Shown piece after piece: positions 1 through 39,420 of a stretch of DNA of 64,000 nt. The stretch is from positions 32,001-96,000 of the IMG/VR virus record IMGVR_UViG_3300020601_000007, one strand, 5' to 3'. The notes under the pieces are model-generated. The model was not told the DNA's origin and did no database searches. It saw only the letters and a program-made list of their open reading frames with translations. Numbering within the stretch: position 1 is the stretch's first letter; the number at the start of each line of letters is the position of its first letter. Position numbers and translations under genes: made by a program. The stretch comes from a virus.

Positions 1-36
1 GTCCACAGCGGAAGTGGATTGTTTTTGGGAGCAACC

Positions 37-489
37 ATGCAGACCTACACCTATTACCTGACAATTGAAGTTGAAGCGATGAATGATGAATCAGCCGAAA
101 ACAAACTCGAAGGGCTGTTGAAAGGGCTTGATTTGAAGAAAAACAAGCACCTGACCCTGACGAGCCTCGAATTGGATGACGGCGGCGAGGGCGAAGGAGA
201 CACCGGAGACGAGGAAGAAGAGGAGTCCTCTCCGACCACCAAAAAAGAGCGCCCCCCTATCCGCCTGCCCAAAGGAAAGGGCTCCGCAAAGTGGGACGAT
301 GAATTTGAGGATGCTGATTGGGACGAACTCGATGAAGAAAAGAAGGAGAAAGTCAAGGTCAGCGCAGAAGAACTTGCCAGTGACGATGATGACTGGGAGT
401 GGGAAGACGACGACTGGGATGCTGAGGAAGACGATGATGAAGACGATGATGAAGACGACGACATCAGCGGGCTCCTGAAGGGTCTTTGA
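37..489 (+). CDS. Hypothetical protein with a very acidic D/E/W-rich C-terminus
   Basis: ATG at 37 in frame with ORF 19..489; long D/E tracts (DDDWEWEDDDWDAEEDDDEDDDEDDD); stop overlaps the next start. Confidence 0.75.
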   Translation: MQTYTYYLTIEVEAMNDESAENKLEGLLKGLDLKKNKHLTLTSLELDDGGEGEGDTGDEEEEESSPTTKKERPPIRLPKGKGSAKWDDEFEDADWDELDEEKKEKVKVSAEELASDDDDWEWEDDDWDAEEDDDEDDDEDDDISGLLKGL

Positions 490-725
490 TGTATTCCGCT
501 GACGACCCGTGGGGAGAAAACGCTCTTCTCCGGGCGGATGAGCCGCCGCTCAAAGCCCATGCTATTCTGTGCGCAATTTCTGCCTTTGTTTTCGGGATTT
601 ATTTTCTGCTGAGTGTTTTCGTTGACGGTGCTCAAGTGGGGCAGGTTGGGTGGCTTTTGCTGACCGTGTATTTCGTTTGGCGTAGCATCACGTATTTCCA
701 AGAACTGAATGCTGATTTGGATTAA
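486..725 (+). CDS. Small membrane protein (2 predicted TM helices)
   Basis: Two hydrophobic stretches; coupled to the upstream stop. Confidence 0.65.
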   Translation: MMYSADDPWGENALLRADEPPLKAHAILCAISAFVFGIYFLLSVFVDGAQVGQVGWLLLTVYFVWRSITYFQELNADLD

Positions 726-755
726 CCCTTTATCCGAAGAGGTATTGCGTAATCC

Positions 756-1010
756 ATGGAAGACGATTCGTTGTTCCGTGTTAAGGGGCACCCACTCCAG
801 TGTAAGCACCGCCCGTTGAGCGATGCCGAGGCAGCGCTTTTGCTCAGGGAAGAGGGAATTGAATTGAGTCAAATCCCTCCAATTTTCGCAGACGACCCCG
901 CTTTGGAGTCAATTCGTGTCCCGGTAGGGACTGTAATCGAGGTGACACGGCCTGAAGTCTTCGGATTTCCCGAGCACAGGTATTATCGTCGCATTGTCAT
1001 TGGATGGTGA
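756..1010 (+). CDS. rpo5: RNA polymerase subunit Rpo5 (RpoH / Rpb5 C-terminal domain)
   Basis: HPLQCKHRPLS...LL...I...QIPPI...DDPAL...GTVIEVTR...YYRRIV matches the Rpo5 pattern; 84 aa like the archaeal subunit; TATA-like CCTTTAT at about 727-733. Confidence 0.9.
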   Translation: MEDDSLFRVKGHPLQCKHRPLSDAEAALLLREEGIELSQIPPIFADDPALESIRVPVGTVIEVTRPEVFGFPEHRYYRRIVIGW

Positions 1011-1011
1011 T

Positions 1012-1455
1012 GTGAAGTTGGAGATATGGACGGACGGGTCGTGCTACAAGAGCGACAGCACGGATGCGATTGGCGATGCAGGCTCCGGTATCGTCTGCAT
1101 TGATGCTGACAATGACAAAATCCTGTTCCTCTTGGGAGAATACATCGGAGTGGAGTCGAACAACTACGCAGAATACCGAGCAATCGAACTTGGCCTTGAA
1201 GAGGTGAACCGCCGATATGAGGTGGACGAGTCCTTTGAAATTGAAGTCGTTTCCGACTCAAAATTGGCAGTCAATACCCTCTCTGGAAATTGGAAGACCG
1301 ATAAGCCACACTTGAGAGAAATCATGGCCCGCATTCAAGAAATTGAAGCAGACATGGGAGTCATTCTTCAATATTCGTGGGTCAAAGCCCACATCGGGAT
1401 TCACTACAACGAACTGGCCGACTATCTGGCATACAACGCTGCGAGGGGAGATTGA
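1012..1455 (+). CDS. rnhA: Ribonuclease HI
   Basis: WTDGSC, SNNYAEYRA, VVSDSKL, WVKAHIGIHYNELAD give the D-E-D-D catalytic set; GTG start at 1012 follows a GGTGA RBS. Confidence 0.93.
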   Translation: MKLEIWTDGSCYKSDSTDAIGDAGSGIVCIDADNDKILFLLGEYIGVESNNYAEYRAIELGLEEVNRRYEVDESFEIEVVSDSKLAVNTLSGNWKTDKPHLREIMARIQEIEADMGVILQYSWVKAHIGIHYNELADYLAYNAARGD

Positions 1456-4400
1456 TGGTTATCATGGAGCCGGAAGAGGACTCGCTGCGAGTCAGCAAAT
1501 TCTTCTGGTTCCTTCCGTATGCAGAAATCAAGGATACCGTGGAGCGAGGCCGTGGTCAACGGGTTTTTTCTTTCGACCAACGCTTTGTGCCCAGTGACAA
1601 ATTTTCAGCAGCAAAGTGGTTTTACACAGACGAAGCCGCTGGCCTGAGGGCTCAATCTGACCACATGGTCATGGTGTCTGTTCAAAACAAGACCTTCGAG
1701 CCAACTGTCAACACGCCTGTGAAGCCGGATGACTATTTGGACGCTGACATTTTCCACACAGGAGAAGAAACCGAATACCCCGGATACATCATCGAAGCAT
1801 TTGAGGCTGAACTCCGCTTCTTCGTCGTCGACAACTTCTCCATGTTCTCGAAGGTTCATGAGTGGCATTCCCTTGACATGGGCTTCCTGAGCCCTGAAGA
1901 GGTTCTGGCGATGTCCAAGGTCAAAGTCACAGACCCTGAGATTTACAACGAGGATGCCGAGCGCTCACCACGAAGGAACGGTCCAGAGGACATTCGGATG
2001 GGAACCTTCGAGAAGGACACCGCCTGCGGAACCTGCCAAAAAACATGGAAGAACAATTTCCTTCAGTCGTGCCCCGGTCACTTTGGACATATCTCACTGG
2101 AGGTCCCGATTCCCAACTGGATGTTCATTGGCGGTGACAAGGAGCCGCTATCGGCGTCCCCGCTGTTGTATGCCCTCAACAGCACTTGTATGCATTGTAG
2201 TGGTCTCCTGATTGCCAAGAAGGAGAATTTGGAACTGCTGGAGGAAAAGGTCACAGCCGTGCGAGAAAGCAACCTGCTGAACACCGCAGGATACGACATC
2301 ATCCGAAAAACGGTGAAAATGCTCATCAATGTGGAGCACAGTGCGCGCTGGAGCGAGGCTGGGCTCAAAAAGAAGGATGTCCCTAAGAACATCACATGCC
2401 CGCACTGTGAGCAAGTCTCTCCTCAACTCACGTTCCATTTGTCGTATTCTGCTGGGCAACAGTTCGTATTTGCGCCGAAGGAAGGTGCTTATGACCCTGA
2501 GAAAGACGAAATGGTGTATTATCCGTATAAGCAGGTCCACGATTGGCTGCAAGACATCAGCGAAAAAGACGCCTCAATGCTCGGCTTTTCTTCTGGCTCT
2601 CGTCCTGCTGACATGTTTTTCACAAACCTACCTGTTATCCCAGTGGTAGCACGACCACCTGCGTCAACGCCCAGTGGGGGGCTCGTCCCCAATGACCTCA
2701 GCGACCTTTATTCCAACGTGGTCAAAATCAACAACCGAATCAAGCGGGACCGCGCCGCCGCCTCGCAGGTTGAGCGGTTGAGCAAGAAATTGTTTCAGGC
2801 AGTCAGCCAGTTGTTGACAGGACAGAAGTCCTCCATCGGTTCCGGCGGCATGAGGACAGCCTTGACGAAGGCTGGGCTTGCTCCACAGAACCTTCGTGGT
2901 TTGTTCGACCGAATCACAGGGGTTGGCCGCCAGAAAAACACCATGCGGCGCAACCACCAAGGGAAAGTGAACGAGGGCGTTGCGTATTCGGTCATCACGC
3001 CTGACCCCTCGTTGGAAATCAACGAAGTCGGCGTTCCGTATCCAGTCTGTCTTGAATTGACCATCGAAGAGGAAGTGACTGAAAGCAACATCGAGTTCCT
3101 CCGTCAATGCGTGCTCAACGGCAAGCAAACCGCCATCAGGAAGGGCCAGAAATACAAGGACATCGACCCTTCTCGATACCCCGGAGCACATTACCTTCGA
3201 CCCCCATCGAGCAGTGGCTATGACCTCGGTTTCGAGGACGTGCCAGAGCGATACCGAGCCAGCACACGGCGGGTCGTGAGCGCTGAAGTCCAAATCGGGG
3301 CAAAGGTCAAGCGAAACATCATCGCTGGGGACATCATTCTTTTCACACGCGCACCGGCCCTGCACCGTCAAAACATGATTGCGTTCAAAGTGGTTCCGAG
3401 CAAGAGCCGAAGCCTTTCATTCAATCCGTCCGTGTGCATACCGTTCAACGCAGATTACGACGGAGATGCCATGCGTATGTTCGTTCCACAAACCAAGGAA
3501 GCCATTGAAGAGGCACGCACAACCATGATGCCATCACACCAGATGTTGCACACACGATACGGACGGACGTTCCTCACGTTCGACCAAGACGAAATCAGCG
3601 GTTCGTATTTGCTCACATTCAAAAACAAAGAAGCCGAAGGTGGAATCCATCCAGACAAAAGGAATGGCTGGGGCTTTGACGAGGATGGCTATCCCATCCT
3701 TTCTCGGAATCGCGTCCTCAACCTGCTCTCACGGGCGTTCACACGCACAGACGACGGCCTTGATTACATGACTCAGTTGCCCAACCCGATTTCCAAGGGG
3801 CCTTACAAGGGGTGCTATCGTGGACGAGACATTGTCTCAATGTTTATCCCTGATGGAATCAACGCAGAATACAAGGCCAAGGACGGGGAAACGAACGTTG
3901 TGATTGAAGACGGAATCGTCAAAGAGGGCGTTCTGGATGAGAAGTTCTTTGGAACAAAATCAGGAGTCCTCGCTGCTGCATTCGTTTATCGCTTTGGCTG
4001 GGACGAGGGACATCGACAGTTGGAACGGATGACCAACCTTCTGTCTCGGGTTGTTTTCGCAGCGCACATGGAATACGGTTTCTCTCTGGGCATCACTGAT
4101 ATTTCATTCAAGGGACGGCAGGCTGAGTGGATTGGCGACCCCATCCTCGGAGGACCGGTAGGGAGGTTTTACGACGGAATTGACGAGAAGTTCGAGGAGG
4201 TCAACGAACGGGTCTCTGAAGTTGAGCGCTTGTTCCGTTCTCGCCGTTTGAATGAAATCGAGGGTATCACCGAAGCAGACCTCAAAACCGCTCTCAAGGA
4301 CCCTGTTCTGGCAAAAGAGCAGGTCATTGGACGAATCACCAAGGAATACGAGGACTACGCACAGAAAAGTGTTCTGGATGAGCAGCCAAGCACAAACGCC

Positions 4401-6212
4401 ATGAACATCACAGTGAACTCAGGGGGGCGTGGAAACAAAAGCCAACTTCAGCAGATGACTGCGGTTTATGGTCAACATCAACTGACAGGCGAAGGGCGCC
4501 CTCGCCACGGCATCAACCCGGACAGGACACTCGCCCACTTCAAGGGAGGACAGGTTATTGTCCCAGCAGATGCGGGTGATGAGGACGCCTTCTTTGACAT
4601 GGATGGGAATTTGGTCAAACTTGTCGTCCACCCGATTGAGCCGAATGCAAAGTCTCAGGGGCTTGTCAGCCAGTGTTATGCTCGTGGTCTTGACCCAGCC
4701 GGATATTGGTTCGCTTCGACCGCAGGGCGGCGCAAACTGATGGAGTCTTCGCAGGGTGGAATCCAGAAATCGGGATACATGGAGCACAAAATGAAGCGTG
4801 CCATGGAGAACCTCATGGTCGATGAAAAGCAGCGTGTGATTGACATTCGTTCAGGCAACATCGTTTCTTTTGCTGTGGGCGGCGATGGCCTTCGGCCATA
4901 CCGAGCACGAGGCCCAGATGATGACAAAGGAGAGGGTCTTGACTTCCAACCACTGCTTCTCGACCACCAATGTATTCACGACAGGTCCCTTTATGACCAC
5001 TGCGAAACCTGTGCAAATGGACCTCAGTCCCGGCTGCAATTCGATTTTTTGCCTCAAAACCTTGAGAAACGGATGTTAGAACTGTTTTCCGGCAGGAAAG
5101 TCGACCTCAAGACGGCTGCAAGCCTGAAGAAAGAAGCCAAGCGGTATTATCAAGAGTCCATCGTTCCGACTGGTGAAATGATTGGGTCCACAGCAGCAGC
5201 AAACCTTGGTGAGCCTGCAACACAAGCCGGGTTGCGAGCATTCCACGGTGGTGGAAAGGGAAGCGTCCCAACAGTCGACCGGCTGGTGCAATACCTTGAA
5301 CTCAAGCGAGCAGAACAACAGCAGCCTGTGACCACGGTTTATCTGAAAGACGAATACAACAACGAAGAAAACGCCAAGCGTCTGGCGAATTTCAGCACGG
5401 GCATCAGGCTCAGTGAAATCGTCAAGTCCGTGGAATACGACACGGAAAATTACCGCATCATTGTCAGTTTCAACGAGCAATACAGCGAACTCTTCACCAT
5501 TGATTTCGACTACGTCTACCACACCCTCAACAAGCAAATGAAGAAGTTCGGGAGGGAAATCATTGAGATGACAGCAGGAAACGATGTCATCATTCAATGT
5601 CACGGCGAATACCGAGACCTTTTGCTCGCGAAAGAGTCGCTATCAGCCATTCCAATTTCCGGAATCAGGGACTCAGGATTGGCTTTTGCTGTCCAGAACA
5701 ATGACAACGGACGTTGGGGTGTTGAATTGAAAGGCCCAATCAAGGGAAACGACGAAATCAAAATCCCCACCTTCTGGAAGGACATCGTTGGTGTTCTTGG
5801 GCCGTATTGCGACTTGAGCCTGACTGAGTTCAGTGATTCTTGGATGGTCTACAACATCATGGGACTTGAGGCTTCGCTGATGCATCTGACGCAGATGCTC
5901 TCACGACAAATGAACGGTGCACCCGGTGTGAGCGGCATTGGTCCGCTTGACTATCGCTACATTCGCACGATGACGGACTACATGGGCGTGTTTGGTCGCC
6001 CTGTCGGTCTTGGTGTGGCTGGTCACATGGTGAAATACAACCGTTCGGTTCTTGCTGCGATGGGTGGGGAGAATCCGTGGATGAGCATCATCCCCGGTGC
6101 AGCCGTAGGGAACAGCGACAAATTGCTCGGGCCTGTTGAGGCGGTTTCGTCAGGAAAGACGCTCAATGTTGGGCAGGTGTATCGAGAAAAGACTCAAGCA
6201 GATGATGTTTGA
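1455..6212 (+). CDS. rpo1: DNA-directed RNA polymerase largest subunit, fused Rpo1N+Rpo1C (A'+A''), highly divergent
   Basis: GFLSPEEV, CGTC...CPGHFGHI Zn site, RAPALHR, catalytic PFNADYDGDAM, bridge helix GLDPAGYWF...SGYMEHKM, trigger loop GEPATQAGLRAFH; ATG 1455 overlaps the RNase H stop and follows GAGGGGAG. Confidence 0.95.
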   Translation: MVIMEPEEDSLRVSKFFWFLPYAEIKDTVERGRGQRVFSFDQRFVPSDKFSAAKWFYTDEAAGLRAQSDHMVMVSVQNKTFEPTVNTPVKPDDYLDADIFHTGEETEYPGYIIEAFEAELRFFVVDNFSMFSKVHEWHSLDMGFLSPEEVLAMSKVKVTDPEIYNEDAERSPRRNGPEDIRMGTFEKDTACGTCQKTWKNNFLQSCPGHFGHISLEVPIPNWMFIGGDKEPLSASPLLYALNSTCMHCSGLLIAKKENLELLEEKVTAVRESNLLNTAGYDIIRKTVKMLINVEHSARWSEAGLKKKDVPKNITCPHCEQVSPQLTFHLSYSAGQQFVFAPKEGAYDPEKDEMVYYPYKQVHDWLQDISEKDASMLGFSSGSRPADMFFTNLPVIPVVARPPASTPSGGLVPNDLSDLYSNVVKINNRIKRDRAAASQVERLSKKLFQAVSQLLTGQKSSIGSGGMRTALTKAGLAPQNLRGLFDRITGVGRQKNTMRRNHQGKVNEGVAYSVITPDPSLEINEVGVPYPVCLELTIEEEVTESNIEFLRQCVLNGKQTAIRKGQKYKDIDPSRYPGAHYLRPPSSSGYDLGFEDVPERYRASTRRVVSAEVQIGAKVKRNIIAGDIILFTRAPALHRQNMIAFKVVPSKSRSLSFNPSVCIPFNADYDGDAMRMFVPQTKEAIEEARTTMMPSHQMLHTRYGRTFLTFDQDEISGSYLLTFKNKEAEGGIHPDKRNGWGFDEDGYPILSRNRVLNLLSRAFTRTDDGLDYMTQLPNPISKGPYKGCYRGRDIVSMFIPDGINAEYKAKDGETNVVIEDGIVKEGVLDEKFFGTKSGVLAAAFVYRFGWDEGHRQLERMTNLLSRVVFAAHMEYGFSLGITDISFKGRQAEWIGDPILGGPVGRFYDGIDEKFEEVNERVSEVERLFRSRRLNEIEGITEADLKTALKDPVLAKEQVIGRITKEYEDYAQKSVLDEQPSTNAMNITVNSGGRGNKSQLQQMTAVYGQHQLTGEGRPRHGINPDRTLAHFKGGQVIVPADAGDEDAFFDMDGNLVKLVVHPIEPNAKSQGLVSQCYARGLDPAGYWFASTAGRRKLMESSQGGIQKSGYMEHKMKRAMENLMVDEKQRVIDIRSGNIVSFAVGGDGLRPYRARGPDDDKGEGLDFQPLLLDHQCIHDRSLYDHCETCANGPQSRLQFDFLPQNLEKRMLELFSGRKVDLKTAASLKKEAKRYYQESIVPTGEMIGSTAAANLGEPATQAGLRAFHGGGKGSVPTVDRLVQYLELKRAEQQQPVTTVYLKDEYNNEENAKRLANFSTGIRLSEIVKSVEYDTENYRIIVSFNEQYSELFTIDFDYVYHTLNKQMKKFGREIIEMTAGNDVIIQCHGEYRDLLLAKESLSAIPISGIRDSGLAFAVQNNDNGRWGVELKGPIKGNDEIKIPTFWKDIVGVLGPYCDLSLTEFSDSWMVYNIMGLEASLMHLTQMLSRQMNGAPGVSGIGPLDYRYIRTMTDYMGVFGRPVGLGVAGHMVKYNRSVLAAMGGENPWMSIIPGAAVGNSDKLLGPVEAVSSGKTLNVGQVYREKTQADDV

Positions 6213-8916
6213 ATCCACTATCCAAGGTTCGGATGTCCCACCCCATCGCACGATAAATCGTTGACATGACGTTCTTGACGTGCCGCTGTGCGACTGCTTC
6301 GTAGTCGACGGTGTATTCTGCGATTTCTTCTGCTTCTCGGAAAGCGATGATGCCGTTCGTTGGGATTGGCGTCGGGCCGTCCTTCACAAAAATCCAAGAC
6401 ACAGAGTCGCCCTTCTGGATGTTCTCAGTGCTGTTTGGTGAAAGGTGCTCGTTATACCACAGGCTGATTGTCGAGGACCAATAATTGTCCACGTAGCAAG
6501 CATCCTCGTCCTTTCCTTCGTCTCCTGTTTTGGGGAGGGGGCAGACACCACAATCGCAATTGATTTCCAAGCCACGCCAGTCCAAATGATGTGGGAGGTG
6601 CTTACCGACCTTGACGTTGGCCTTCATCTGTGAGATGTCCTGCTGCCCGCTGACAATGCTCCGCACCAATTTCTTGACATCACGCTGTATCAGTCGCTCG
6701 GACTTCCCGTCAAACAGTTTCTTCAAGGTTTCAATCTGCACATCACGACCCACAGGAGCAGTGTTCGTTTGCTTTGCTTCCATGCCGCTCATTTTGATGC
6801 GGGCCCATGGGTCGGTGTTGATGTCGTAATCCAGCACCTTGAATCCCTTCTTGTCGTCCCACACCTTGCGCCCTGCGTATCGGTTCTTCTTGGCGATGAA
6901 ATACCGGTCCATGATGACCTCAAGGTCAACCACAACAGCGTCGGATTGAAGTTTTTCTTGAATGCTTTCCGTCAAGAGTGTGCAGACGCGCTCAGATTCT
7001 TCCAGAACCTGCTCCTTGGTCCATTCTGATGGCATCGTGACGAAAATCGAATCAGTGTGACCGAACACCACTCGGTGACCCTCCTTCTCAGCGAGGTCTT
7101 TGATGAACAGCAGCGAGTCCCTTCCACCTTTGGTGATGGTTGCAGCAACGTCTCGGTCATACCAACTGAATTTGTCAAAGGCCATGATACCGTAAAAGGA
7201 TGCACGAAGACGCTTGACGTTCAATTGCATGGTGTTCCACTTGAGGGCACCCTTCTTGTCGCCATTGGCTTCTGCCTCCTTGAGAAGCGCTTTGTATTCA
7301 TCACGCTTCTTGTCAAGGTCGAGAACGATGCGTGGAAGCACACCCATAGGGCTGCGACGGAAGCGAACACCGTTGTGTCCAATGATGTCATCCGGCAGGT
7401 GTTCCATCCCGGGACGAACCTTGGTGCTGGAACAGGTGTTTTGCGAAACCATCATTGAGGGGTAAAGGCCAGCGAAGTCTTTGATGACAGTCCAATCGTG
7501 CAGACCGACAGAATCAGTGTAGACATCGTAGTCATCTGGCTCTCGTTCCTGAGGTTCTTTTTCTGGGTTCATCACGATGGCACCTCGCAGTTTCTCTTCC
7601 TCGTCTTCATCATCCTGCTGCTCCTCATTCCACCCCGGTGTTTCGCTCTTCCAGTCGGCGTAGCGCTCGAATTGAGTGCGAGCGAGATAGGTTGCATAGA
7701 AGGTGGATTTGAACTGACAACCAGCAAAGGCCTGCATGGACTTGAAGGAATTGATGACGTTGTATGCGTTGTCAATTTCAACCAGCAATTCGACGTCACG
7801 GATGTTGTATTGAAGGAACTCGTCCCAGTCCTTGTCGTAGTCCTTGGAGAAGAAGTCGGGGCTCGGTTGCTTCCCTCGTCCAAAGAGTGTTTGGGCAACG
7901 GTTTCCAAGCGATTCCCGGGCAGTTCGTTGTTTGTGCTGTCCTTATACAGACGACGGAAGGCCACCATCATGTCCAGCGTGTCGATTCCTCGGATAGGCT
8001 GGTATTGCCACTTGTATTCTCGGCCACCTTTGAAGGACGGTGGGTCGACGATACCGTATGGTGAAAGAACAGCACCACCGAACACCTGTCGGCGGAATAG
8101 ACCGTTCTCGCACTGACCCGCCATGCTGTTCATTGGGTGCGGGATGTCCAGTGATTCCATGCGATGATACAGAACAGGGAAGTCGTATCCAGCACTGTTC
8201 CACCCTGTGAGAACATCGAAGTCCATGGAAAAGACCCAATCAGCAAAGTGCGTGAGCATTTCCCGCTCGGTAGCGAAGCGGTATTCAAAGCCCCATTCAT
8301 GCTTGGTGTTCTGACGCTCCCACTTTGGGTGGCAGGCAAAGGCAGTGTATTGCTTGGTGAAATTGGAATACACCACGATGGAGTTCACCATTTGATTGTC
8401 CTGCCAGATGTTCAGCCGGGTGTTTTCCAACCAGTCCATTTTGTCTGGGTCGTCACCACGGAATTGGAGTGCTTCGATGTCAAAATACCCCACATGGTAG
8501 TCGGAGTCGTGCGATTCAAGGTCGAGTTTCTGGTCAATGACGACAGCGTCCTCCTGTGGGAGGTCAGCCCCATACACAGGCCCGTAATTGTTGAGGAAAT
8601 AGCGCACCTTCGCAGACGTGTAGCATTCGACACGATACAGCGGCTGCTTGTCCTCGGTCTGTCCGTCTTGAACAAAGGAATGAATCTCCTCATTGTTCTT
8701 GAAATATGCAAGCACTTGGTCAGTCGTCTCGAAGTCGATACCGCGCCCGTTGCGAAGCAAACGGAAGGTCTTGGGAGACATGAAGAAGCGAGGGTATTGG
8801 TCATAGAAATCCACCTTTCGGCAACCGTCCTCACGGTATCGCACTGCAACACGATGTCCGTCAGTCGGGCGTCCTTTCCACCCCGGCGATTGTTCACAGA
8901 TGCTGATGTTGGTCAT
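6163..8916 (-). CDS. polB: Family B DNA polymerase with 3'-5' exonuclease
   Basis: ExoI YFDIE, ExoII GWNSAGYDFP, ExoIII YNIRDV, motif A DFAGLYPS, motif B KRLRASFYG, motif C FGHTDS, KKNRYAG; ATG 8916 follows GAGGAGG. Confidence 0.96.
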   Translation of the reverse strand: MTNISICEQSPGWKGRPTDGHRVAVRYREDGCRKVDFYDQYPRFFMSPKTFRLLRNGRGIDFETTDQVLAYFKNNEEIHSFVQDGQTEDKQPLYRVECYTSAKVRYFLNNYGPVYGADLPQEDAVVIDQKLDLESHDSDYHVGYFDIEALQFRGDDPDKMDWLENTRLNIWQDNQMVNSIVVYSNFTKQYTAFACHPKWERQNTKHEWGFEYRFATEREMLTHFADWVFSMDFDVLTGWNSAGYDFPVLYHRMESLDIPHPMNSMAGQCENGLFRRQVFGGAVLSPYGIVDPPSFKGGREYKWQYQPIRGIDTLDMMVAFRRLYKDSTNNELPGNRLETVAQTLFGRGKQPSPDFFSKDYDKDWDEFLQYNIRDVELLVEIDNAYNVINSFKSMQAFAGCQFKSTFYATYLARTQFERYADWKSETPGWNEEQQDDEDEEEKLRGAIVMNPEKEPQEREPDDYDVYTDSVGLHDWTVIKDFAGLYPSMMVSQNTCSSTKVRPGMEHLPDDIIGHNGVRFRRSPMGVLPRIVLDLDKKRDEYKALLKEAEANGDKKGALKWNTMQLNVKRLRASFYGIMAFDKFSWYDRDVAATITKGGRDSLLFIKDLAEKEGHRVVFGHTDSIFVTMPSEWTKEQVLEESERVCTLLTESIQEKLQSDAVVVDLEVIMDRYFIAKKNRYAGRKVWDDKKGFKVLDYDINTDPWARIKMSGMEAKQTNTAPVGRDVQIETLKKLFDGKSERLIQRDVKKLVRSIVSGQQDISQMKANVKVGKHLPHHLDWRGLEINCDCGVCPLPKTGDEGKDEDACYVDNYWSSTISLWYNEHLSPNSTENIQKGDSVSWIFVKDGPTPIPTNGIIAFREAEEIAEYTVDYEAVAQRHVKNVMSTIYRAMGWDIRTLDSGFKHHLLESFLDTPAQH

Positions 8917-9116
8917 TTTGAAACCTCCTCGCCACTCGGTAGCGAAGCACCCGTGAATCGCCACTCATGAGCAGTCACCTTGAGGTTTTTGAGGAACAGC
9001 AACTCCAAAGCCTCACCGAGGTGCTTTTTGCAGACGTGAACAGTGGATACCAAATGGGTTTTGCCCTCAGTGACGGCTGGGTCGCCACAAAAATCGCACT
9101 TGGGGAAAAAGGTCAT
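8913..9116 (-). CDS. Small Zn-finger protein
   Basis: CDFC...CKKH; ATGA-coupled to polB. Confidence 0.65.
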   Translation of the reverse strand: MTFFPKCDFCGDPAVTEGKTHLVSTVHVCKKHLGEALELLFLKNLKVTAHEWRFTGASLPSGEEVSK

Positions 9117-9250
9117 TTCTTCCCCTCCCTCTTGTAATAGGCGTCGGCCTCACGCAATTGCTTGAGGAACCATTTCTGCACCTCAGATGATGCTTTCGGG
9201 TCGTGGTATCCTGCACGCAATTTTGCCAAGTCGTATTTTTGCTTCTTCAT
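9113..9250 (-). CDS. Small hypothetical protein (45 aa, not in the ORF track)
   Basis: MKKQKYDLAKLRAGYHDPK...; AGGTGA RBS; overlaps both neighbours by 4 nt. Confidence 0.55.
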   Translation of the reverse strand: MKKQKYDLAKLRAGYHDPKASSEVQKWFLKQLREADAYYKREGKK

Positions 9251-10101: not shown

Positions 10102-10139
10102 AGGCGGCTCTCATCGCCTCAAGCACATAAACCTTCAGG

Positions 10140-10685: not shown

Positions 10686-10832
10686 CAGTGTCTTTCAGTG
10701 CAGCGTTTGTGTGGAGATTCACCCCCAGCCAGTCATAAAGAACCCAAAAATCGTCATCCCGTTTTTTGTTCTCAAAACACTCATAACGTCCGTTCTGCAT
10801 GCTCATTTTGCGATGTTTTTTTTGAAGAGCCA

Positions 10833-11168
10833 TCAAATCACCTTGCAGCGCAGAGTCTCCTGCCCGCACTTTGGACACTGCGTAGGCGTATGAAGTTCTT
10901 TGGGCTCCCCGAGCCCTGTCATTTGGTTGCGGTAGTCGCAGGGACCGGTGCAGATGAACAGAAATGTCCGTGCCTTTCCGAGGAGCACCTCGCCAAAGCG
11001 CTCGAATTGTGCACACACCTTCAGCATCTCCGAATCGGTGATTTCCAGTTCAGCCACCTTGATTCCCTTTGCTTTCACGATGAAATTCCAGCCGTTTGCC
11101 ACCTGTCCGACATTGAAACTCATTCCGTTCTTCTCAAGAATTTTCTCGCTCACAACAATGCCTCCCAT
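10833..11168 (-). CDS. Hypothetical Zn-ribbon protein
   Basis: C-terminal CTGPC...CPKCG. Confidence 0.6.
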   Translation of the reverse strand: MGGIVVSEKILEKNGMSFNVGQVANGWNFIVKAKGIKVAELEITDSEMLKVCAQFERFGEVLLGKARTFLFICTGPCDYRNQMTGLGEPKELHTPTQCPKCGQETLRCKVI

Positions 11169-12007
11169 TCGTATTCGTGATTTTCTCCATCCTCAGTCTG
11201 ATATTTTCCTTTGTAGAATTCTTCCTTTTGGATGATGCCTCGGATTGTTGGGCCGGTCCAAACCTTCCCCTCCTGACGGGTGGGAACGTTCCTTTCATCC
11301 AGCGCCTTTGCCACCTCAGAATAGGTCATCCCTGAGCGATGGAGAGCGAATATTTCTTTCAAAATGGGAACCTCTGAAGGCTCTGGAACCAGCATTCCCT
11401 TGTCCTCACTTTCCTCCGTCTTAGCGAAGAGCGATGCATAGCCGTATGGTGGACGGCCAGTGTGTTTCCCAGCGTTCTTTTTGCCTCGCAGTCCTGCTTT
11501 CGTGCGTGCCTTGATGAGGTCCACCTCCATGGCCGCAAAGGCTGTCATGATGCGGAAAATAAGCATCCCAACCGGGGTCGTAGTGTCAACTTGAATGTCA
11601 AGAAAAGCGAAGTCTCGGTCAGCCGTTCGCAGCGTATCCGCCCACTCACCAGCGTTCCTGACGTTGCGGTGGAGGCGGTCCATTTTGGCCCCGACAACCA
11701 CATCCCATTCATTCATTTCCTCCATCATCTGCTGATAGGCTGGCCGTGAAACGTTCGTTCCTGAGAAACCCTCATCCCGATACACCTTGACGACCTCCCA
11801 GCCTTGCATGGCGCAATAGGCACGGCACTCTCGCACCTGCTGGTCGATGGAGGTCTCCGATTGAAGGTCGGTTGATACCCGTCCGTAAATGACGGCTCGA
11901 ATCGGTTCCTCAGATGTTTCAGAACCCCCCCTTGTCAGAAGGGGGGCAAATGACAGGATTCCAACAGGGATGGTATAAGCAAGTGAATGAATCAGGTATG
12001 CAATCAT
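11150..12007 (-). CDS. Serine recombinase (resolvase catalytic domain plus recombinase DNA-binding domain)
   Basis: AVIYGRVST..Q, YRDEGFSG...RPAY, KMDRLHRN, GRPPYGY, C-terminal HTH; start uncertain, hydrophobic N-terminal extension. Confidence 0.9.
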   Translation of the reverse strand: MIAYLIHSLAYTIPVGILSFAPLLTRGGSETSEEPIRAVIYGRVSTDLQSETSIDQQVRECRAYCAMQGWEVVKVYRDEGFSGTNVSRPAYQQMMEEMNEWDVVVGAKMDRLHRNVRNAGEWADTLRTADRDFAFLDIQVDTTTPVGMLIFRIMTAFAAMEVDLIKARTKAGLRGKKNAGKHTGRPPYGYASLFAKTEESEDKGMLVPEPSEVPILKEIFALHRSGMTYSEVAKALDERNVPTRQEGKVWTGPTIRGIIQKEEFYKGKYQTEDGENHEYEWEALL

Positions 12008-12061
12008 CGGTTTGCCCTCATAATCAGGGGGTAAAGCGGTGGAAATAAAGGTTGGTGCCAT

Positions 12062-14330: not shown

Positions 14331-14365
14331 AACGGACGTTGCTCATACGGCTCGGCCATAAAGGT

Positions 14366-15637: not shown

Positions 15638-15639
15638 GC

Positions 15640-16242: not shown

Positions 16243-16247
16243 CCTTC

Positions 16248-18598: not shown

Positions 18599-18603
18599 TA
18601 TGA

Positions 18604-25819: not shown

Positions 25820-27358
25820 TCACTCTCCGAATTCGTCCGGTTCACGGGCGATGATGATGTTGTCAATACGCAAGAGCATGGACGCCGTGGACGTAGCAGA
25901 CTCAAGAGCGCGTAGAACGACCTTCATCGGCTCCACGACCTTTTCTGCTGCCATGTCGACGACCTCCCCAGTGTAGACGTTGAGGCCTGCGGTCTTGTTG
26001 CCCTCTGCGTGTGCCTTGCGAAGTTCTCGAAGGGTGGCGATAGGCTGCATCTGCCCGCTGTTCTCGGCAAGGGTCAGGGGGATGATTTCCAGTGCATCTG
26101 CGAATGCTTCGACTGCGAGGGACTCAAGTCCACCGACGCTCGTAGCGAATTCACGCAGGCGAATAGCCAACTCAACTTGAGATGCTCCTCCGCCCGCCAG
26201 AACCTTGCCCTCTTTGCGAGCAACGTGAACGACACCGATTGCATCATCCATGGCACGAGCGATTTCTTGGGATGCCTGCTGGGTAGGGGCTTGGACCACG
26301 ATGGAAACAGCGTTCTTGTTTGGTGTTCCTCGTAGCAAAAAGAAACCGCGCTGTCCGTTGGTGGACTCGACCTCTTCAATGGCCTCGCATGTTCCGAGGT
26401 CGTCAGACTCAAGGTCTTCGAGTTCTGCCACGATGAGAGCGTTGGTCGCATCAGAGATGGCCTCAAGGTTGGAGGCGGAACAGCGGCGACAGGCGATGAT
26501 GCCGTTGCGAGCGAAAATTTCAGCAAGGGTCGGGTGAATGTCCTTCATTGTCAGAATAACGTTCGTTCCAAGGTTGGCGATGTGTTCAGCCATGTTGGCG
26601 ATGAGAGTGCGCTGGCGCTGACGGAAGGCTTCGGCTTCTTCTGCACTGTTGAATTGGAGGTTGGTCCCCTTCGCCATGGCAGGTAGGTCAAGAGCACCTT
26701 CAATGAGAGCGATGCGCGCATTGTCAAGGCTGGAAGGCATGGCGCTGTGCATTTTCATTTGACCGACGAGAATGCCGTCAGGAGCATAGGACTCCGAAAC
26801 GGGAGAACCGTAGCGAGAAAGGACATTGATGGAACCCGGTGCAGCCTGCTCGGTTGCCTTCACGCACAGTTCAGCCAGATGTTCTCGTTCCACTTCTGCG
26901 GTTTTCCCTGTCATGGCGGTCATAGCGATGTCCAAGAAATATTCGTCAGCAGGGATGGTCAGGTCCTCGATGATTTCTTGGCACTTAGCAAGGGCGATTT
27001 GGTATCCATTGACGATGGTTGTTGGGTGGACTCGCTTTGCGAGAAGGTCTTCCGCTTGCTTCAGCAGTTCTCCGGTCTTGACAATGGCTGATGTGGTTCC
27101 GTCGTAGCACTCTTCTTCCTGCGTGCGTGCGACTTCCACCATCATTTTTGCAGTGGCGTGCGTGAAGTTCGTTTCTTTCAGGATGGTTGCACCATCATTG
27201 GTGATGACGGTTCGGCCAGTGGCATCGACCAACTGCTTGTCCATCCCCTTTGGTCCAAGTGTTGAGCGAACGAGTTCAGCGACAAATTTGCCGATGCTGA
27301 TGTTCACTTCTTGGGCGGTTTGCTGCTTTTGCTGCTTCGCGTCGGTGGGTTGACTCAT
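25820..27358 (-). CDS. ths: Group II chaperonin (thermosome subunit)
   Basis: STLGPKGMDKQLVD, ITNDGATIL, YDGTTSA, LAGGGA, AFADALEIIP.TLAENSG, VVEP..V, LLRID. Confidence 0.96.
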   Translation of the reverse strand: MSQPTDAKQQKQQTAQEVNISIGKFVAELVRSTLGPKGMDKQLVDATGRTVITNDGATILKETNFTHATAKMMVEVARTQEEECYDGTTSAIVKTGELLKQAEDLLAKRVHPTTIVNGYQIALAKCQEIIEDLTIPADEYFLDIAMTAMTGKTAEVEREHLAELCVKATEQAAPGSINVLSRYGSPVSESYAPDGILVGQMKMHSAMPSSLDNARIALIEGALDLPAMAKGTNLQFNSAEEAEAFRQRQRTLIANMAEHIANLGTNVILTMKDIHPTLAEIFARNGIIACRRCSASNLEAISDATNALIVAELEDLESDDLGTCEAIEEVESTNGQRGFFLLRGTPNKNAVSIVVQAPTQQASQEIARAMDDAIGVVHVARKEGKVLAGGGASQVELAIRLREFATSVGGLESLAVEAFADALEIIPLTLAENSGQMQPIATLRELRKAHAEGNKTAGLNVYTGEVVDMAAEKVVEPMKVVLRALESATSTASMLLRIDNIIIAREPDEFGE

Positions 27359-27404
27359 GTTTCTCAGAAGGGCCCGTTTGACAAGTGGGCTTAAAGGAAG
27401 CGGC

Positions 27405-27872
27405 TCAAACCGCAATCCAATGAAGGGTCTGACTGCCACTGGCTGCACACAAGAAAATGGATGAACCACGTGTGATTTCAAGGGTCAGCGAACCACCTGC
27501 CGCAATTGGGAAGCCGACGGTTGCTGAAGTCGCTGAATTTCCTACCCGAATGACTTGCCCGTTTCCAGAATCTGCGCTGAGCGTGATGCTACGTTGCGCG
27601 ACAATCGGGATGATTTGATTGTTGGTCCCGCTTGCATAGGCGTCGGAATAATAGTCGTCAAGAGAACGTGCGGTGTTCGTGATGGTCATCGACACGAAGC
27701 CGTATTCAGTCCCTCCTGCACTGCGCAGTGATGGGAACTTCTCAACGCCACTATCTACGGTCTTCAATTTGGCGTAAGCGGAATCAGAATCAACCACGCC
27801 TTCGAGGGGGTAATTGTCAGCCCCACCCGAACTGGGTCCTTTGCGCTTGACGCTTATGGGTTCTCCTGCCAT
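27405..27872 (-). CDS. Small beta-rich virion protein (single jelly-roll/penton-like, tentative)
   Basis: ITLSADSGN..VIRVG.....GFPIAAGGSLTLEI...IFL......LHWIAV all-beta pattern. Confidence 0.55.
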   Translation of the reverse strand: MAGEPISVKRKGPSSGGADNYPLEGVVDSDSAYAKLKTVDSGVEKFPSLRSAGGTEYGFVSMTITNTARSLDDYYSDAYASGTNNQIIPIVAQRSITLSADSGNGQVIRVGNSATSATVGFPIAAGGSLTLEITRGSSIFLCAASGSQTLHWIAV

Positions 27873-32981: not shown

Positions 32982-33926
32982 TCACTTGGGGAAATATTCC
33001 GCAAGCAGACTGCCAGAAGTCGGGATACCCGCTGGGTTGATGATTTTGAACGAAAGTCGTCCGCCCGTGCGAGCCTTGATTTCTTGGAGTTGAGCCATTG
33101 AGAGTTCAACGATTCGGTATTTCCAACCAATGAGGCGAATGCGACCGTCCACGATGTATTCTTCCGAGTCGTTGACAAGGCGGAAGGTGGGGAGGTTGTT
33201 CTCACCATGCTCAATCCAAATGCTGTATTCCCAGTTCGGGTCGTCGCACGAGGAAATCTGTCCGTCGATAAATCCTGAAAGGCCCAAAAGGGAAGAGGTC
33301 GAGGCGGAGCCAGATTCAGTCTCTGGAGCCTCGTCAAGGACATATTTAGGGACGCCCGATGGGTGACGCAAATACATTTTGGGTGAAATGAGACCGGTGG
33401 TTGTGCCACGGAATCCGATGGGAATCGACTGGTCAGCGTCTTCGTCAGACGGGGGCAGGCCGGGGTCAGTTGCTGTGCTGGCAACCAACCACTCGCCGTT
33501 GGTCAAATCGAGACACTTTGGTTGAAGTGGGATGGTCGGGCACAACTGATACAGGTGTCCGAAGAAGGGCTCAAGGTCATCGAATTTGATGTGGCCAGAG
33601 TCGTAATTCGGGGAAAGCACCGTGCTGGTGGTGCTGCCCGTTGCGGGAGACCCGTTGGGGAACATGGCTGCCGTCATGGAATTCTGTCCATAGCGGACCA
33701 GCGCAGCGTCCGTAATTTGACTCGAGGACACTGTAACACTGTGGGTGTCGGTGAAGAAGAGGTCGACGGTAAGCGCCTCCACACTCTCGACCATCACGAA
33801 GCGGTCCCTGATTTTCAGGAGGAAGCCCGGTTTGAGGGCCACTCCATCGCCATTGTTTCCGTGTCCTTGCCCAAAGGGGGAACCGAATACGTTCCCTGAG
33901 CGGACTCCTTGGTTGTTGTTTGCCAT
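32982..33926 (-). CDS. Beta-rich virion protein, candidate large single-jelly-roll major capsid protein
   Basis: Beta-strand pattern (SIWIEHG..LPTFRLVN...IRLIGWKYRI); own promoter-like CTTATA and GGTGA RBS; near the A32-like ATPase. Confidence 0.5.
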   Translation of the reverse strand: MANNNQGVRSGNVFGSPFGQGHGNNGDGVALKPGFLLKIRDRFVMVESVEALTVDLFFTDTHSVTVSSSQITDAALVRYGQNSMTAAMFPNGSPATGSTTSTVLSPNYDSGHIKFDDLEPFFGHLYQLCPTIPLQPKCLDLTNGEWLVASTATDPGLPPSDEDADQSIPIGFRGTTTGLISPKMYLRHPSGVPKYVLDEAPETESGSASTSSLLGLSGFIDGQISSCDDPNWEYSIWIEHGENNLPTFRLVNDSEEYIVDGRIRLIGWKYRIVELSMAQLQEIKARTGGRLSFKIINPAGIPTSGSLLAEYFPK

Positions 33927-38948: not shown

Positions 38949-39420
38949 CCTCGATAAGGACTGATGGTGTGTCAAACAGCACGGACGCTGCGTTGGTGAG
39001 GTAATTCTCAAACCCTGCTCCCTGAACGAGTGTCTTCACCCCGCTTTCCTCGAACTGATTCAAAAGTGCCTTCAACAAGGACTCATCTGTGACTTCAGGG
39101 ATGCTGAACAAAACGAACTGGTGTTGTGACCAGATTCCGAGGTCGTAGCCGAACTCGGTCTCTTCATCCAACTCGGGGAATGAGTGCAAATCAATATGAA
39201 CGGACGTTTGCTTTAACATCTGGAAAAATTCTTCGGCGAACTCACTTGATGCAGCAGCAGTTCGATTCAAATCAAGGATGCTACGAGCGTTGTCTCCAAT
39301 GATAACATGGAAATCCTCGCCCATGGATTCCAGTTTCTCCTCAAGGAGAGGGAGAAACAGAACGGCTCCGTCATCCCGGCCTTCACCGGAACCTGCGTGG
39401 GGGACGGTGATGAGAATCAT
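38836..39420 (-). CDS. Zn-dependent amidohydrolase/peptidase (N-formylglutamate amidohydrolase-like fold)
   Basis: ILITVPHA, DLNR, IDLHSF, VLIEV motifs. Confidence 0.65.
   Translation of the reverse strand: MILITVPHAGSGEGRDDGAVLFLPLLEEKLESMGEDFHVIIGDNARSILDLNRTAAASSEFAEEFFQMLKQTSVHIDLHSFPELDEETEFGYDLGIWSQHQFVLFSIPEVTDESLLKALLNQFEESGVKTLVQGAGFENYLTNAASVLFDTPSVLIEVNDGDGLNYEMMAAALAEGIVDFLAGPEMLDSVQSPV

What the first reader, a model, noticed from the sequence alone, without database searches (positions are those of the whole stretch)
756..6212. Virus-encoded archaeal-type multisubunit RNA polymerase (Rpo5 plus fused Rpo1)
Seen: Rpo5 and a full-length largest subunit with an intact NADYDGD, separated by RNase HI. 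In the cellular rpo5-rpo2-rpo1 operon that position is occupied by Rpo2. The context is viral (packaging ATPase, virion genes). Established: characterised archaeal viruses use the host RNAP, whereas Nucleocytoviricota and some jumbo phages encode their own; most euryarchaea split Rpo1 into A' and A''. Inference: a transcriptionally autonomous archaeal virus, or one that swaps subunits into the host RNAP. Rpo2 is not in this window.
Basis: partly seen in the sequence, partly recalled or inferred. Interest (0 to 1): 0.88.

Follow-up and report, generated by a model that had tools for sequence, protein, structure and literature searches.

The report
Archaeal virus-like element encoding half an RNA polymerase
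A roughly 110-140 kb marine or salt-marsh archaeal virus-like element ("magrovirus group D" type) carries a conserved operon for an unsplit, very divergent RNA polymerase largest subunit and subunit Rpo5, but has no second large subunit, so it most likely rebuilds the host's polymerase rather than owning a complete one.

Summary
The window holds a co-directional operon: Rpo5 (756-1010), an RNase HI with all four catalytic acidic residues (about 1012-1455) and a 1585-aa fused A'+A'' Rpo1 (1455-6212). Rpo1 keeps NADYDGD, the trigger loop and the clamp zinc motifs. PolB lies convergent to it.

This is not a chimera. The same Rpo5-RNaseH-Rpo1/PolB synteny recurs in eight independent contigs. Five whole relative records carry Rpo1, a packaging-type FtsK/HerA ATPase and a highly conserved beta-rich protein on one contig.

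The Rpo1 family (25 clusters aligned) is monophyletic on a long stem. It sits outside all sampled archaea and eukaryote/giant-virus sequences, and a host-clade origin is rejected (AU p=1e-5).

No Rpo2, Rpo3, Rpo6, Rpo10 or TBP was found in 110 kb here. None was found in a roughly 135 kb two-contig relative that bridges the contig ends, or in four other records. The sister clade adds a true TFB.

The element matches "magrovirus group D" (Philosof 2017), where "RNA polymerase A" was noted in one sentence.

Best reading (about 50%): viral Rpo1+Rpo5, plus TFB where present, replace the host's A'/A''/H on the host Rpo2 platform. Full transcriptional autonomy is not supported.

The parts
37..489 (+). 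Acidic (Asp/Glu-rich) protein, conserved first gene of the cluster; function unknown
   Evidence: Homologues lie directly upstream of Rpo5 in L002, L003-L007, L011 and L012 (BLASTP E 5e-39 to 8e-3). No Pfam hit.
486..725 (+). 79-aa hydrophobic small protein
   Evidence: ORF; translation; no Pfam hit. No homologue detected in the relatives at E<=0.01.
756..1010 (+). Rpo5 / RNAP subunit H (Rpb5 C-terminal domain only)
   Evidence: PF01191 E 3.7e-12, 46 bits against a 23.5-bit cut-off. NCBIfam subunit H scores 41 bits, below the equivalog cut-off of 83. Homologues sit at the same position in seven relatives.
1012..1455 (+). RNase HI (start codon uncertain: TTG 994, TTG 1000 or GTG 1012)
   Evidence: PF00075 E 8.8e-13. 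The motifs TDGS, AEY, SDS and ELAD carry the catalytic D-E-D-D. It is 39-77% identical to the gene at the same position in all eight relatives.
1455..6212 (+). Fused Rpo1 (A'+A''), 1585 aa, highly divergent
   Evidence: Rpb1 domains 1-5. NCBIfam A' scores 422 bits (cut-off 819) and A'' 99.8 bits (cut-off 420). Best PDB matches are archaeal Rpo1N, E 9e-83. 25 family clusters were aligned, with an invariant catalytic core.
1455..1859 (+). Family-specific N-terminal extension of Rpo1 (about 135 aa)
   Evidence: Pfam domain 1 begins at residue 164 of the long ORF. The extension is conserved across the family. A profile search of 1.84 billion representatives found 33 hits, nearly all family Rpo1 N-termini or short fragments, plus one 746-aa repeat protein.
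3447..3467 (+). Catalytic Mg-binding loop NADYDGD
   Evidence: N665, A666, D667, D669, G670 and D671 are invariant in 25 sequences.
4716..4808 (+). Bridge helix, divergent (GRRxxxES..G.I.KSGY; one extra residue; the cellular DTA is replaced)
   Evidence: Alignment with archaeal, eukaryotic and bacterial sequences.
4971..5012 (+). Invariant Cys/His cluster (C1173, H1175, C1183, C1186) in the segment joining the A'-like and A''-like parts
   Evidence: Invariant columns. The region 1034-1199 is not aligned by the NCBIfam A' or A'' models. Zinc binding is inferred.
5208..5255 (+). Trigger loop (GEPATQ..LR.FH)
   Evidence: Q1257, L1260, R1261, F1263 and H1264 are invariant.
6163..8964 (-). Family B DNA polymerase, convergent with Rpo1 (conserved neighbour)
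   Evidence: PF00136 E 2e-29 and PF03104 E 2e-11. Same position in all eight relatives, 27-54% identity.
11150..12061 (-). Serine recombinase/resolvase (context; group D marker)
   Evidence: PF00239 E 5e-38.
25820..27481 (-). Thermosome subunit (context; group D marker)
   Evidence: PF00118 E 2e-140. NCBIfam thermosome alpha scores 489 bits against a cut-off of 450.
32982..33926 (-). Highly conserved 314-aa beta-rich protein, candidate jelly-roll capsid protein (context)
   Evidence: 217 clusters at 47-90% identity, on contigs up to 143 kb. AF2 pLDDT 56, mostly strands. Best fold match is the SPV1 capsid 6oj0_T, Z 5.5, with many jelly-roll capsids at Z 4-5. Foldseek found nothing significant.
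39417..40133 (-). 238-aa FtsK/HerA-type P-loop ATPase, candidate genome-packaging ATPase (context)
   Evidence: phrog_2666 E 1.6e-17. Pfam AAA_22 and DUF87/HerA hits are weak. 51-78% identical in all five related records.

Best explanation
The locus is a conserved transcription module of a large (about 110-143 kb) archaeal virus-like element of the 'magrovirus group D' type. It encodes a catalytically intact but very divergent, unsplit Rpo1 and its direct binding partner Rpo5. An RNase HI lies between them.

The element has no second large subunit and no assembly-platform subunits. The most likely mechanism is therefore a hybrid enzyme. Viral Rpo1+Rpo5 would take the place of host A'/A''/H on the host Rpo2-Rpo3/10/11/12 platform, giving an RNAP whose clamp, dock, cleft and jaw are viral.

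In the sister clade a virus-encoded TFB is present, and TFB docks on Rpo1. That would make the system promoter-selective, the archaeal counterpart of a phage sigma factor but at the level of the catalytic subunit.

What is shown: the gene identities, the intact catalytic motifs, the conservation, the synteny, the absence of detectable Rpo2, and the phylogenetic isolation. What is inferred: assembly with host subunits, promoter redirection, and the role of RNase HI (R-loop or primer removal).
For: - Identity and integrity.
- Conserved operon in eight independent contigs spanning Rpo1 identities of 32-51%.
- The exact protein is recorded on 12 contigs.
- Independent DNA assemblies tile window 1-20000 with almost no differences.
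- Rpo1, the ATPase and the 314-aa protein are co-linear in five whole records.
- No PF00562 hit in the 110-kb contig, in four IMG/VR relatives of 65-105 kb, or in G006. G006's contigs C22 (101 kb) and C2 (34 kb) together make about 135 kb of one element.
- C2 and L055 bridge homologues of this contig's two ends. The bridging stretch encodes MCM, PriS, ERF, a ligase and a TFIIB-like protein, not Rpo2.
- Five Rpo2 signature motifs are absent from all element DNA but all present in the cellular control.
- hhalign of 39 ORFs against an Rpo2 catalytic-domain alignment gave probabilities of 1.1% or less.
- No Rpo3, Rpo6, Rpo10, TBP or TFS.
- A true TFB (two PF00382 repeats, 70-86 bits) lies next to PolB in the sister clade.
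- Established knowledge: Rpb5/H binds the largest subunit; the TFB ribbon, reader and linker contact the Rpo1 dock, lid and clamp; the catalytic centre needs double-psi barrels from both large subunits.
Against: - No direct evidence exists that the viral protein binds host Rpo2.
- Identity to any cellular Rpo1 is only about 26%, and the bridge helix is altered. Compatibility with a host platform is therefore not obvious.
- The window's own contig has no TFB and is incomplete (CheckV 79%).
- A very divergent, unrecognisable second subunit among the many large ORFans (1103, 894, 933, 923 aa and others) cannot be excluded. The hhalign queries were single sequences.
- The host is not identified. 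The thermosome is only 40-46% identical to the cellular copies (54% to one stop-interrupted ORF on a separate contig, G005:C12), with no clear lineage signal.
- Contigs from RNA libraries cover the locus, but evenly and without strand information, so transcription is not shown.
Confidence: 0.5

Rival explanations
1. Autonomous viral RNAP. The element encodes a second catalytic subunit that has diverged beyond recognition (as in crAss-like phage gp66 or the phiKZ non-virion RNAP), hidden among its large ORFans.
For: Many large proteins have no family hits: 1103, 894, 697, 492, 923, 933 and 526 aa. The Rpo1 bridge helix and several motifs are atypical. There is a family-specific N-terminal extension, and the sister clade has a conserved 212-236-aa unknown protein X between RNase H and Rpo1.
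Against: Rpo1 itself is still easily recognised (E 1e-43). A co-evolving Rpo2 of similar divergence should be recognisable too. None is seen by Pfam in six frames, by motifs, or by hhalign. Platform subunits are also absent.
Confidence: 0.17
2. Rpo2 exists but lies in the unassembled part of this genome.
For: The contig is linear and estimated 79% complete. Related contigs reach 137-143 kb.
Against: The relative's contig G006:C2 and L055 (the last 22 kb of a 143.6-kb record) cover the stretch that joins this contig's right and left ends, and hold no Rpo2. G006 C22+C2 (about 135 kb) is negative.
Confidence: 0.05
3. The module serves replication rather than gene expression. The RNAP makes R-loop or primer RNA that RNase HI trims for the adjacent PolB, in the manner of ColE1 or mitochondrial priming.
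For: RNase HI is invariably embedded between Rpo5 and Rpo1, and PolB is the invariable convergent neighbour.
Against: The element and its relatives encode a PriS-type primase and an MCM helicase, so priming does not need an RNAP. The TFB in the sister clade points to promoter-directed transcription. This model would also still need Rpo2.
Confidence: 0.08
4. The element is a megaplasmid or other non-viral mobile element of an archaeon, so the RNAP genes are not 'virus-encoded'.
For: The literature finds no HK97 capsid, portal or terminase in group D, and reports enrichment in the cellular size fraction (PMC10160649). The capsid-fold evidence here is weak. A serine recombinase is present.
Against: A small FtsK/HerA ATPase matches a phage packaging family. 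Extremely conserved, abundant beta-rich proteins lie next to it. A 345-aa protein combines an Arg/Lys/Thr-rich repeat with a membrane anchor. IMG/VR classifies the record as viral. Either way, the RNAP conclusions stand.
Confidence: 0.2
5. Assembly chimera, or a recent capture of a host operon.
For: None found.
Against: The synteny is reproduced in eight or more independent contigs and two clades. DNA contigs from other runs tile the locus with almost no differences. The AU test rejects grouping with the candidate-host clade (p 1.2e-5). Identity to cellular Rpo1 is about 26%.
Confidence: 0.01

Closest known systems
Magrovirus group D (Philosof et al. 2017, PMC5434244; Xu et al. 2023, PMC10160649)
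   Same: [quoted passage not shown] No tailed-virus capsid module is present. Family members occur in Tara Oceans data.
   Different: The papers give one sentence on the RNAP gene. They do not describe Rpo5, the A'/A'' fusion, RNase HI, the absence of Rpo2, TFB, the phylogeny or a packaging ATPase. Identity with group D is inferred from gene content, not from a sequence comparison with their contigs. This sample is from a salt marsh.
Multisubunit RNAPs of Nucleocytoviricota
   Same: A virus-encoded Rpb1-type largest subunit and an Rpb5 homologue, alongside PolB and an FtsK/HerA-type (A32-like) ATPase.
   Different: To my knowledge, those giant viruses that encode an RNAP carry RPB2 and several small subunits. 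Here RPB2 and all platform subunits are missing. The Rpo1 here does not group with the eukaryote/giant-virus-type sequences. The host is apparently archaeal.
Jumbo-phage (phiKZ-like) and crAss-like phage RNAPs
   Same: Prokaryotic viruses with their own beta/beta'-related enzymes.
   Different: As far as I recall, those are extremely divergent, split or single-chain enzymes containing both double-psi barrels. Here there is one canonical full-length beta'-type subunit and no second barrel.
Phage sigma factors and archaeal-virus RNAP regulators (e.g. ATV ORF145/RIP, PMC5123050)
   Same: They reprogram the host RNAP instead of replacing it. This is the proposed logic here, with a viral TFB in the sister clade.
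   Different: Those are small accessory factors. Here the catalytic largest subunit itself would be exchanged, and I know of no characterised precedent for that.
Cellular archaeal rpoH-rpoB-rpoA'-rpoA'' operon
   Same: Gene order H ... A is kept. The best family matches are archaeal H, A' and A''.
   Different: rpoB is replaced by rnhA (plus protein X in one clade). A' and A'' are fused through a Cys/His-bearing linker. Scores fall far below the equivalog cut-offs.

Membership tests
RNAP largest subunit, archaeal/eukaryotic type (Rpo1/RPB1) | Rpb1 domains 1-5 in canonical order in one reading frame | tested here: met
   PF04997, PF00623, PF04983, PF05000 and PF04998 are all above their cut-offs.
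RNAP largest subunit, archaeal/eukaryotic type (Rpo1/RPB1) | Mg-binding NADFDGD loop, trigger-loop His and clamp zinc motifs | tested here: met
   NADYDGD is present. Trigger-loop Q1257, L1260, R1261, F1263 and H1264, and C191/C194/C206/H209, are invariant in 25 sequences.
RNAP largest subunit, archaeal/eukaryotic type (Rpo1/RPB1) | Canonical bridge helix (G-R-E/D-G-L-x-D-T-A-x-K/R-T) | tested here: inconclusive
   A helix-like segment is present at the right place, but DTA is replaced by ES(S/G) and there is one extra residue.
Archaeal Rpo1 orthologue (NCBIfam equivalogs A' and A'') | Score above the curated equivalog cut-offs | tested here: not met
   A' scores 422.6 against 819. A'' scores 99.8 against 420.65. 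A real fused archaeal Rpo1 (P0029) scores 1297 and 415.
Rpo5 / subunit H | Rpb5 C-terminal domain | tested here: met
   PF01191 scores 46.3 bits against 23.5. The NCBIfam equivalog cut-off is not reached (41 against 83).
Complete virus-encoded multisubunit RNAP (Nucleocytoviricota or jumbo-phage kind) | A second large subunit (Rpo2/RPB2/beta) with the second double-psi barrel | tested here: not met
   There is no PF00562 hit, no Rpo2 motif and no hhalign signal in the window's contig, five related records, or the contigs that bridge the ends.
Complete virus-encoded multisubunit RNAP (Nucleocytoviricota or jumbo-phage kind) | Further subunits (Rpo3/Rpo6/Rpo10-type) | tested here: not met
   PF01000, PF01192 and PF01194 are absent from all element records.
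Magrovirus group D | PolB + thermosome + resolvase + RNAP A on one element, with no tailed-virus morphogenetic block | tested here: met
   Searches give the four genes. No portal, HK97 capsid or tail hits appeared in the Pfam and PHROG scans.
Magrovirus group D | Sequence relatedness to the published group D contigs; Poseidoniales host | not testable with these tools
   The published contigs are not held. One relative is binned in a 'Methanobacteriota archaeon' MAG. The thermosome gives no clear host signal.
Varidnaviria-like virion module (vertical jelly-roll capsid + FtsK/HerA ATPase) | Small FtsK/HerA-type packaging ATPase | tested here: met
   phrog_2666 E 1.6e-17, with weak DUF87/HerA, AAA_22 and TraG P-loop hits.
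Varidnaviria-like virion module (vertical jelly-roll capsid + FtsK/HerA ATPase) | Jelly-roll major capsid protein | tested here: inconclusive
   The 314-aa model has pLDDT 56. The best match is the SPV1 capsid at Z 5.5, below the tool's noise guide of 7-8. Foldseek was non-significant. The 204-aa model has pLDDT 42.

The most novel reading that the evidence does not exclude
An ancient lineage of archaeal viruses runs an orthogonal transcription system. It supplies only the Rpo1-side module (a fused Rpo1, Rpo5 and one or two TFB paralogues) and borrows the host's Rpo2 platform and TBP. This would be the first case of a virus exchanging the catalytic subunit of a cellular multisubunit RNAP. Its Rpo1 would be a third deep lineage beside the archaeal and the eukaryote/giant-virus lineages, and so relevant to the origin of viral and eukaryotic RNAPs.
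Probability: 0.35. Interest if true: 0.88.

Novelty: new variant of a known kind. Interest (0 to 1): 0.74.

Why it matters
Reviews state that archaeal viruses encode no RNAP and depend wholly on the host enzyme (PMC5569661). This family breaks that rule in an unusual way, with half an enzyme. If the hybrid model holds, it would be a new takeover strategy: swapping the catalytic subunit.

It would also give a natural experiment on RNAP subunit compatibility and on TFB-Rpo1 co-evolution. It adds a new deep branch to the trees used to debate the origin of eukaryotic and giant-virus polymerases.

It also bears on what 'magrovirus group D' is. These abundant marine elements have had no recognised virion module. 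A packaging-type ATPase next to very conserved beta-rich proteins gives concrete candidates to test.

Tried and rejected
Contexts of the 120-140-kb database contigs could therefore not be read directly. I worked around this with IMG/VR loci, MAG contigs and a walk from an MCM query.
- The site-heterogeneous tree (63 rows, C20) did not finish on one CPU. The trees reported are quick LG+G4 searches and are exposed to long-branch attraction.
- Chimeric assembly and recent host capture are rejected.
- Rpo2 in the missing part of the genome is made unlikely.
- Capsid identification: the 314-aa model is low-confidence and its fold matches are only suggestive. The 204-aa model is unusable. A profile-versus-PDB search and the ESM Atlas gave nothing.
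- Protein 37506-38543, first considered as a capsid candidate, is instead a basic-repeat, membrane-anchored protein.
- Host assignment through the thermosome gave no lineage-specific signal (40-46% to every cellular copy).
- Expression: four RNA libraries hold parts of the locus, but the contigs are short, evenly scattered and unstranded. Carry-over of DNA cannot be excluded.
- No shared upstream promoter motif emerged from a k-mer scan.
- Protein X and the N-terminal extension have no detectable relatives outside the family.
Full report
**What is there**

The window is bases 32001-96000 of a 110,123-bp IMG/VR virus record. The record is linear and CheckV estimates it 79% complete. On the + strand, five genes form a tight co-directional cluster:
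- an acidic protein (about 37-489);
- a small hydrophobic protein (486-725);
- Rpo5/subunit H (756-1010; PF01191, E 3.7e-12);
- RNase HI (about 1012-1455; PF00075, E 8.8e-13, with the catalytic D-E-D-D present);
- a single 1585-aa Rpo1 (1455-6212), whose ATG overlaps the RNase H stop as ATGA.

Public gene callers record this exact 1585-aa protein on 12 contigs. A family B DNA polymerase (6163-8964, minus strand) is convergent with Rpo1.

**Nature of the Rpo1**

All five Rpb1 Pfam domains are present in order. NCBIfam's archaeal A' model covers residues 136-1034 and the A'' model covers 1199-1573. The protein is therefore a fusion of the two halves. The scores (422 and 99.8 bits) are far below the equivalog cut-offs (819 and 420), whereas a genuine fused archaeal Rpo1 (P0029) scores 1297 and 415. 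The best solved relatives are archaeal Rpo1N chains (E 9e-83), followed by Rpb1, RPC1 and bacterial beta'.

An alignment of 25 family clusters (30-97% identical) shows the following as invariant:
- the Mg loop (N665, A666, D667, D669, G670, D671);
- the trigger loop (GEP.TQ..LR.FH);
- the clamp Cys/His motifs;
- the PxLHRQ barrel motif (P634, L636, H637, R638, Q639) and the PFNAD segment.

Several features are unusual:
- The bridge helix is altered: the cellular DTA is replaced by ES(S/G), and there is one extra residue.
- Some motif states resemble bacterial beta' (RAPxLHR, DLxxLY).
- There is a family-specific extension of about 135 aa at the N-terminus. A profile of it found 33 hits among 1.84 billion representatives, nearly all family Rpo1 N-termini or short fragments, plus one 746-aa repeat protein.
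- An invariant Cys/His cluster sits in the segment that joins the A'-like and A''-like parts.

Invariant catalytic residues across such divergence argue for an active enzyme.

**The locus is real and conserved**

Relatives were found in six IMG/VR contigs (50-144 kb) and two MAG contigs. One MAG contig is binned in a 'Methanobacteriota archaeon' MAG, which also has its own rpoH-rpoB-rpoA' operon on another contig. The other is mis-binned in a Flavobacteriales MAG.

All eight carry acidic protein, Rpo5, RNase H and Rpo1, with PolB convergent. In the clade about 33% identical to the window's Rpo1, an extra 212-236-aa unknown protein X lies between RNase H and Rpo1.

Five whole relative records hold Rpo1, a 238-aa FtsK/HerA ATPase (51-78% identical) and a 314-aa protein (55-88% identical) on the same contig, at comparable spacing. 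DNA contigs from two other salt-marsh runs tile window 1-20000 with almost no differences (one letter among the listed pieces). They bridge the Rpo5/RNase H/Rpo1 junctions and the Rpo1/PolB junction. A chimera is excluded.

**Phylogeny**

In a 45-sequence tree (LG+G4, quick search, bacterial outgroup) the family is monophyletic (support 100) on a stem of 0.78. It lies outside a supported clade (96) that holds all sampled archaeal and eukaryote/giant-virus-type sequences. Without bacteria, it attaches to the branch between the archaeal and eukaryote-type clades.

Forcing it together with the clade of the candidate-host MAG costs 95 log-likelihood units (AU p 1.2e-5). Its two subclades are as far apart as the sampled archaea are from each other. 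Between the subclades, Rpo1 (about 33%) is less conserved than the candidate structural protein (about 55%) and the ATPase (about 52%).

The deep position may therefore reflect either antiquity or fast evolution, and long-branch attraction cannot be excluded. What is firm is that this is not a recent copy of a host gene. All 16 sampled genomes of the candidate host phylum have split A'/A'' genes.

**What is missing**

The Rpb2 catalytic domain (PF00562) was sought in six frames and not found in:
- the 110-kb contig;
- four IMG/VR relatives of 65-105 kb;
- the MAG G006, apart from its own bacterial rpoB.

G006 holds two contigs of one element: C22 (101 kb, with Rpo1) and C2 (34 kb). C2 contains homologues of both the left-end and the right-end genes of the window's contig. 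An MCM query from C2 retrieved the last 22 kb of the 143.6-kb IMG/VR record that also carries Rpo1.

The stretch joining the two ends is therefore covered. It encodes MCM, a PriS-type primase, ERF, an ATP-dependent ligase and a divergent TFIIB-like protein, but no Rpo2. Five Rpo2 signature motifs are all present in the cellular control and absent from every element locus. hhalign of 39 ORFs of 250 aa or more against an Rpo2 catalytic-region alignment gave probabilities of 1.1% or less. Rpo3, Rpo6, Rpo10, TFS and TBP were not found either.

By contrast, the 33% clade encodes a genuine TFB (zinc ribbon plus two TFIIB repeats, 70-86 bits) right after PolB. It also has the second, divergent TFIIB-like protein near MCM. 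The window's own contig shows no TFB. If the genomes are collinear, its unassembled junction would be the place for the divergent one.

**Interpretation**

A multisubunit RNAP needs two double-psi barrels, one from each large subunit (established knowledge). The module here corresponds to the 'Rpo1 side' of the enzyme: Rpo1, its direct partner Rpo5 and, in relatives, TFB, which docks on Rpo1.

The most economical reading is a hybrid polymerase. Viral Rpo1+Rpo5 would assemble on the host Rpo2 and platform subunits, use host TBP, and be directed to viral promoters by viral TFB where present. I put this at about 0.5.

The rivals are:
- an unrecognised second subunit (about 0.17);
- a role in replication priming (about 0.08). 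This is weakened by the primase and MCM, although the conserved RNase HI and PolB neighbours keep it alive;
- Rpo2 in unassembled DNA (about 0.05).

Whether the element is a virus or a plasmid-like element is a separate question; I put virus at about 0.75-0.8. The ATPase matches a phage packaging family. The adjacent 314-aa and 204-aa proteins are extremely conserved and abundant. A 345-aa protein combines about 190 residues of Arg/Lys/Thr-rich repeats with a hydrophobic tail. But the capsid-fold evidence is only suggestive.

**Relation to the literature**

Philosof et al. [quoted passage not shown] They found no morphogenetic block and left the nature of the group undetermined. Later papers repeat that group D lacks an MCP and may be plasmid-like. 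The window has all four markers, so the bare existence of the RNAP gene is already known.

Searches of the held library found no description of the following:
- Rpo5 and the A'/A'' fusion;
- RNase HI in the rpoB position;
- the demonstrable lack of Rpo2 and other subunits;
- the TFB paralogues;
- the phylogenetic isolation and the altered bridge helix;
- the packaging ATPase with candidate capsid genes.

**Earlier scan notes**

Notes on the same genome had proposed a jelly-roll/A32-type module and described the giant multi-enzyme protein. I partly tested the first: the ATPase holds, the capsid is inconclusive. For the second I confirmed several of the enzyme domains (HD, guanylate kinase, NUDIX, glutaredoxin).

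**Verdict**

'Transcriptionally autonomous' is not supported. The subunit-swap reading is the best available, but it is inferred.

Noticed in passing
L003:18096-19031(-), L004:14503-15549(-), L005:12622-13554(-), L007:17980-18903(-), L012:18091-19029(-): The sister-clade elements encode a bona fide TFB (zinc ribbon plus two TFIIB cyclin repeats) directly after PolB, a few kb from Rpo1. None is on the window's contig or on its 51% relative.
   Followed up: yes
L053:16202-17152(+) and L055:6898-7833(-): A second, divergent 316-aa TFIIB-like protein (PDB TFIIB E 1e-4; ribbon and first cyclin repeat aligned in order) lies next to MCM, in the stretch that joins the two ends of the window's contig in relatives.
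   Followed up: partly
window 37506-38543 (-): A 345-aa protein whose first ~190 residues are Arg/Lys/Thr-rich repeats (RRKTT/RRRKAP-like) and whose C-terminal part is Gly/Ala-rich and hydrophobic. It could be a membrane-anchored DNA-condensing protein.
   Followed up: no
window 41303-50170 (-): A 2955-aa protein that strings together HD, guanylate kinase, NUDIX, glutaredoxin, DUF7831 and DUF5824 domains. It is followed by several large ORFans (1103, 894, 829, 492 and 697 aa) on the same strand.
   Followed up: partly
window 25820-27481 (-): A full-length thermosome subunit (above the NCBIfam cut-off). It is 40-46% identical to the cellular copies in all 41 sampled genomes of the candidate host phylum, so it is not a recent host copy.
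   Followed up: partly
G005:C12:3945-5591: The best thermosome match (54%) in the euryarchaeal MAG is an ORF interrupted by 3 TAG and 1 TGA codons, on a separate contig. It could be another element, a pseudogene or a recoded gene.
   Followed up: no
G006:C22 and G006:C2 (L012, L053, L054): Two contigs (101 kb and 34 kb) of one such element are mis-binned in a 'Flavobacteriales' MAG. Another family member is annotated in a 'Halieaceae bacterium' MAG. Public taxonomic labels for these proteins are unreliable.
   Followed up: yes
L003:9352-9993(+) and homologues (alignment A4): In the 33% clade a conserved 212-236-aa protein X of unknown family sits between RNase H and Rpo1. It is absent from the window's clade.
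   Followed up: partly
G005, G011, G023, G043: In a subset of the candidate host phylum the cellular A' has a large insertion that splits the Rpb1 domain 2 match in two. These genomes form a tight clade in the tree.
   Followed up: no
window 17648-18598 (+) and 18672-19448 (+): A PD-(D/E)XK nuclease and an adjacent 258-aa unknown protein are conserved, in inverted orientation, in all sister-clade loci near PolB.
   Followed up: no
window 57035-59524 (-): An 829-aa protein with an N-terminal zinc ribbon and a YbjQ-like domain, lying among the large ORFans.
   Followed up: no
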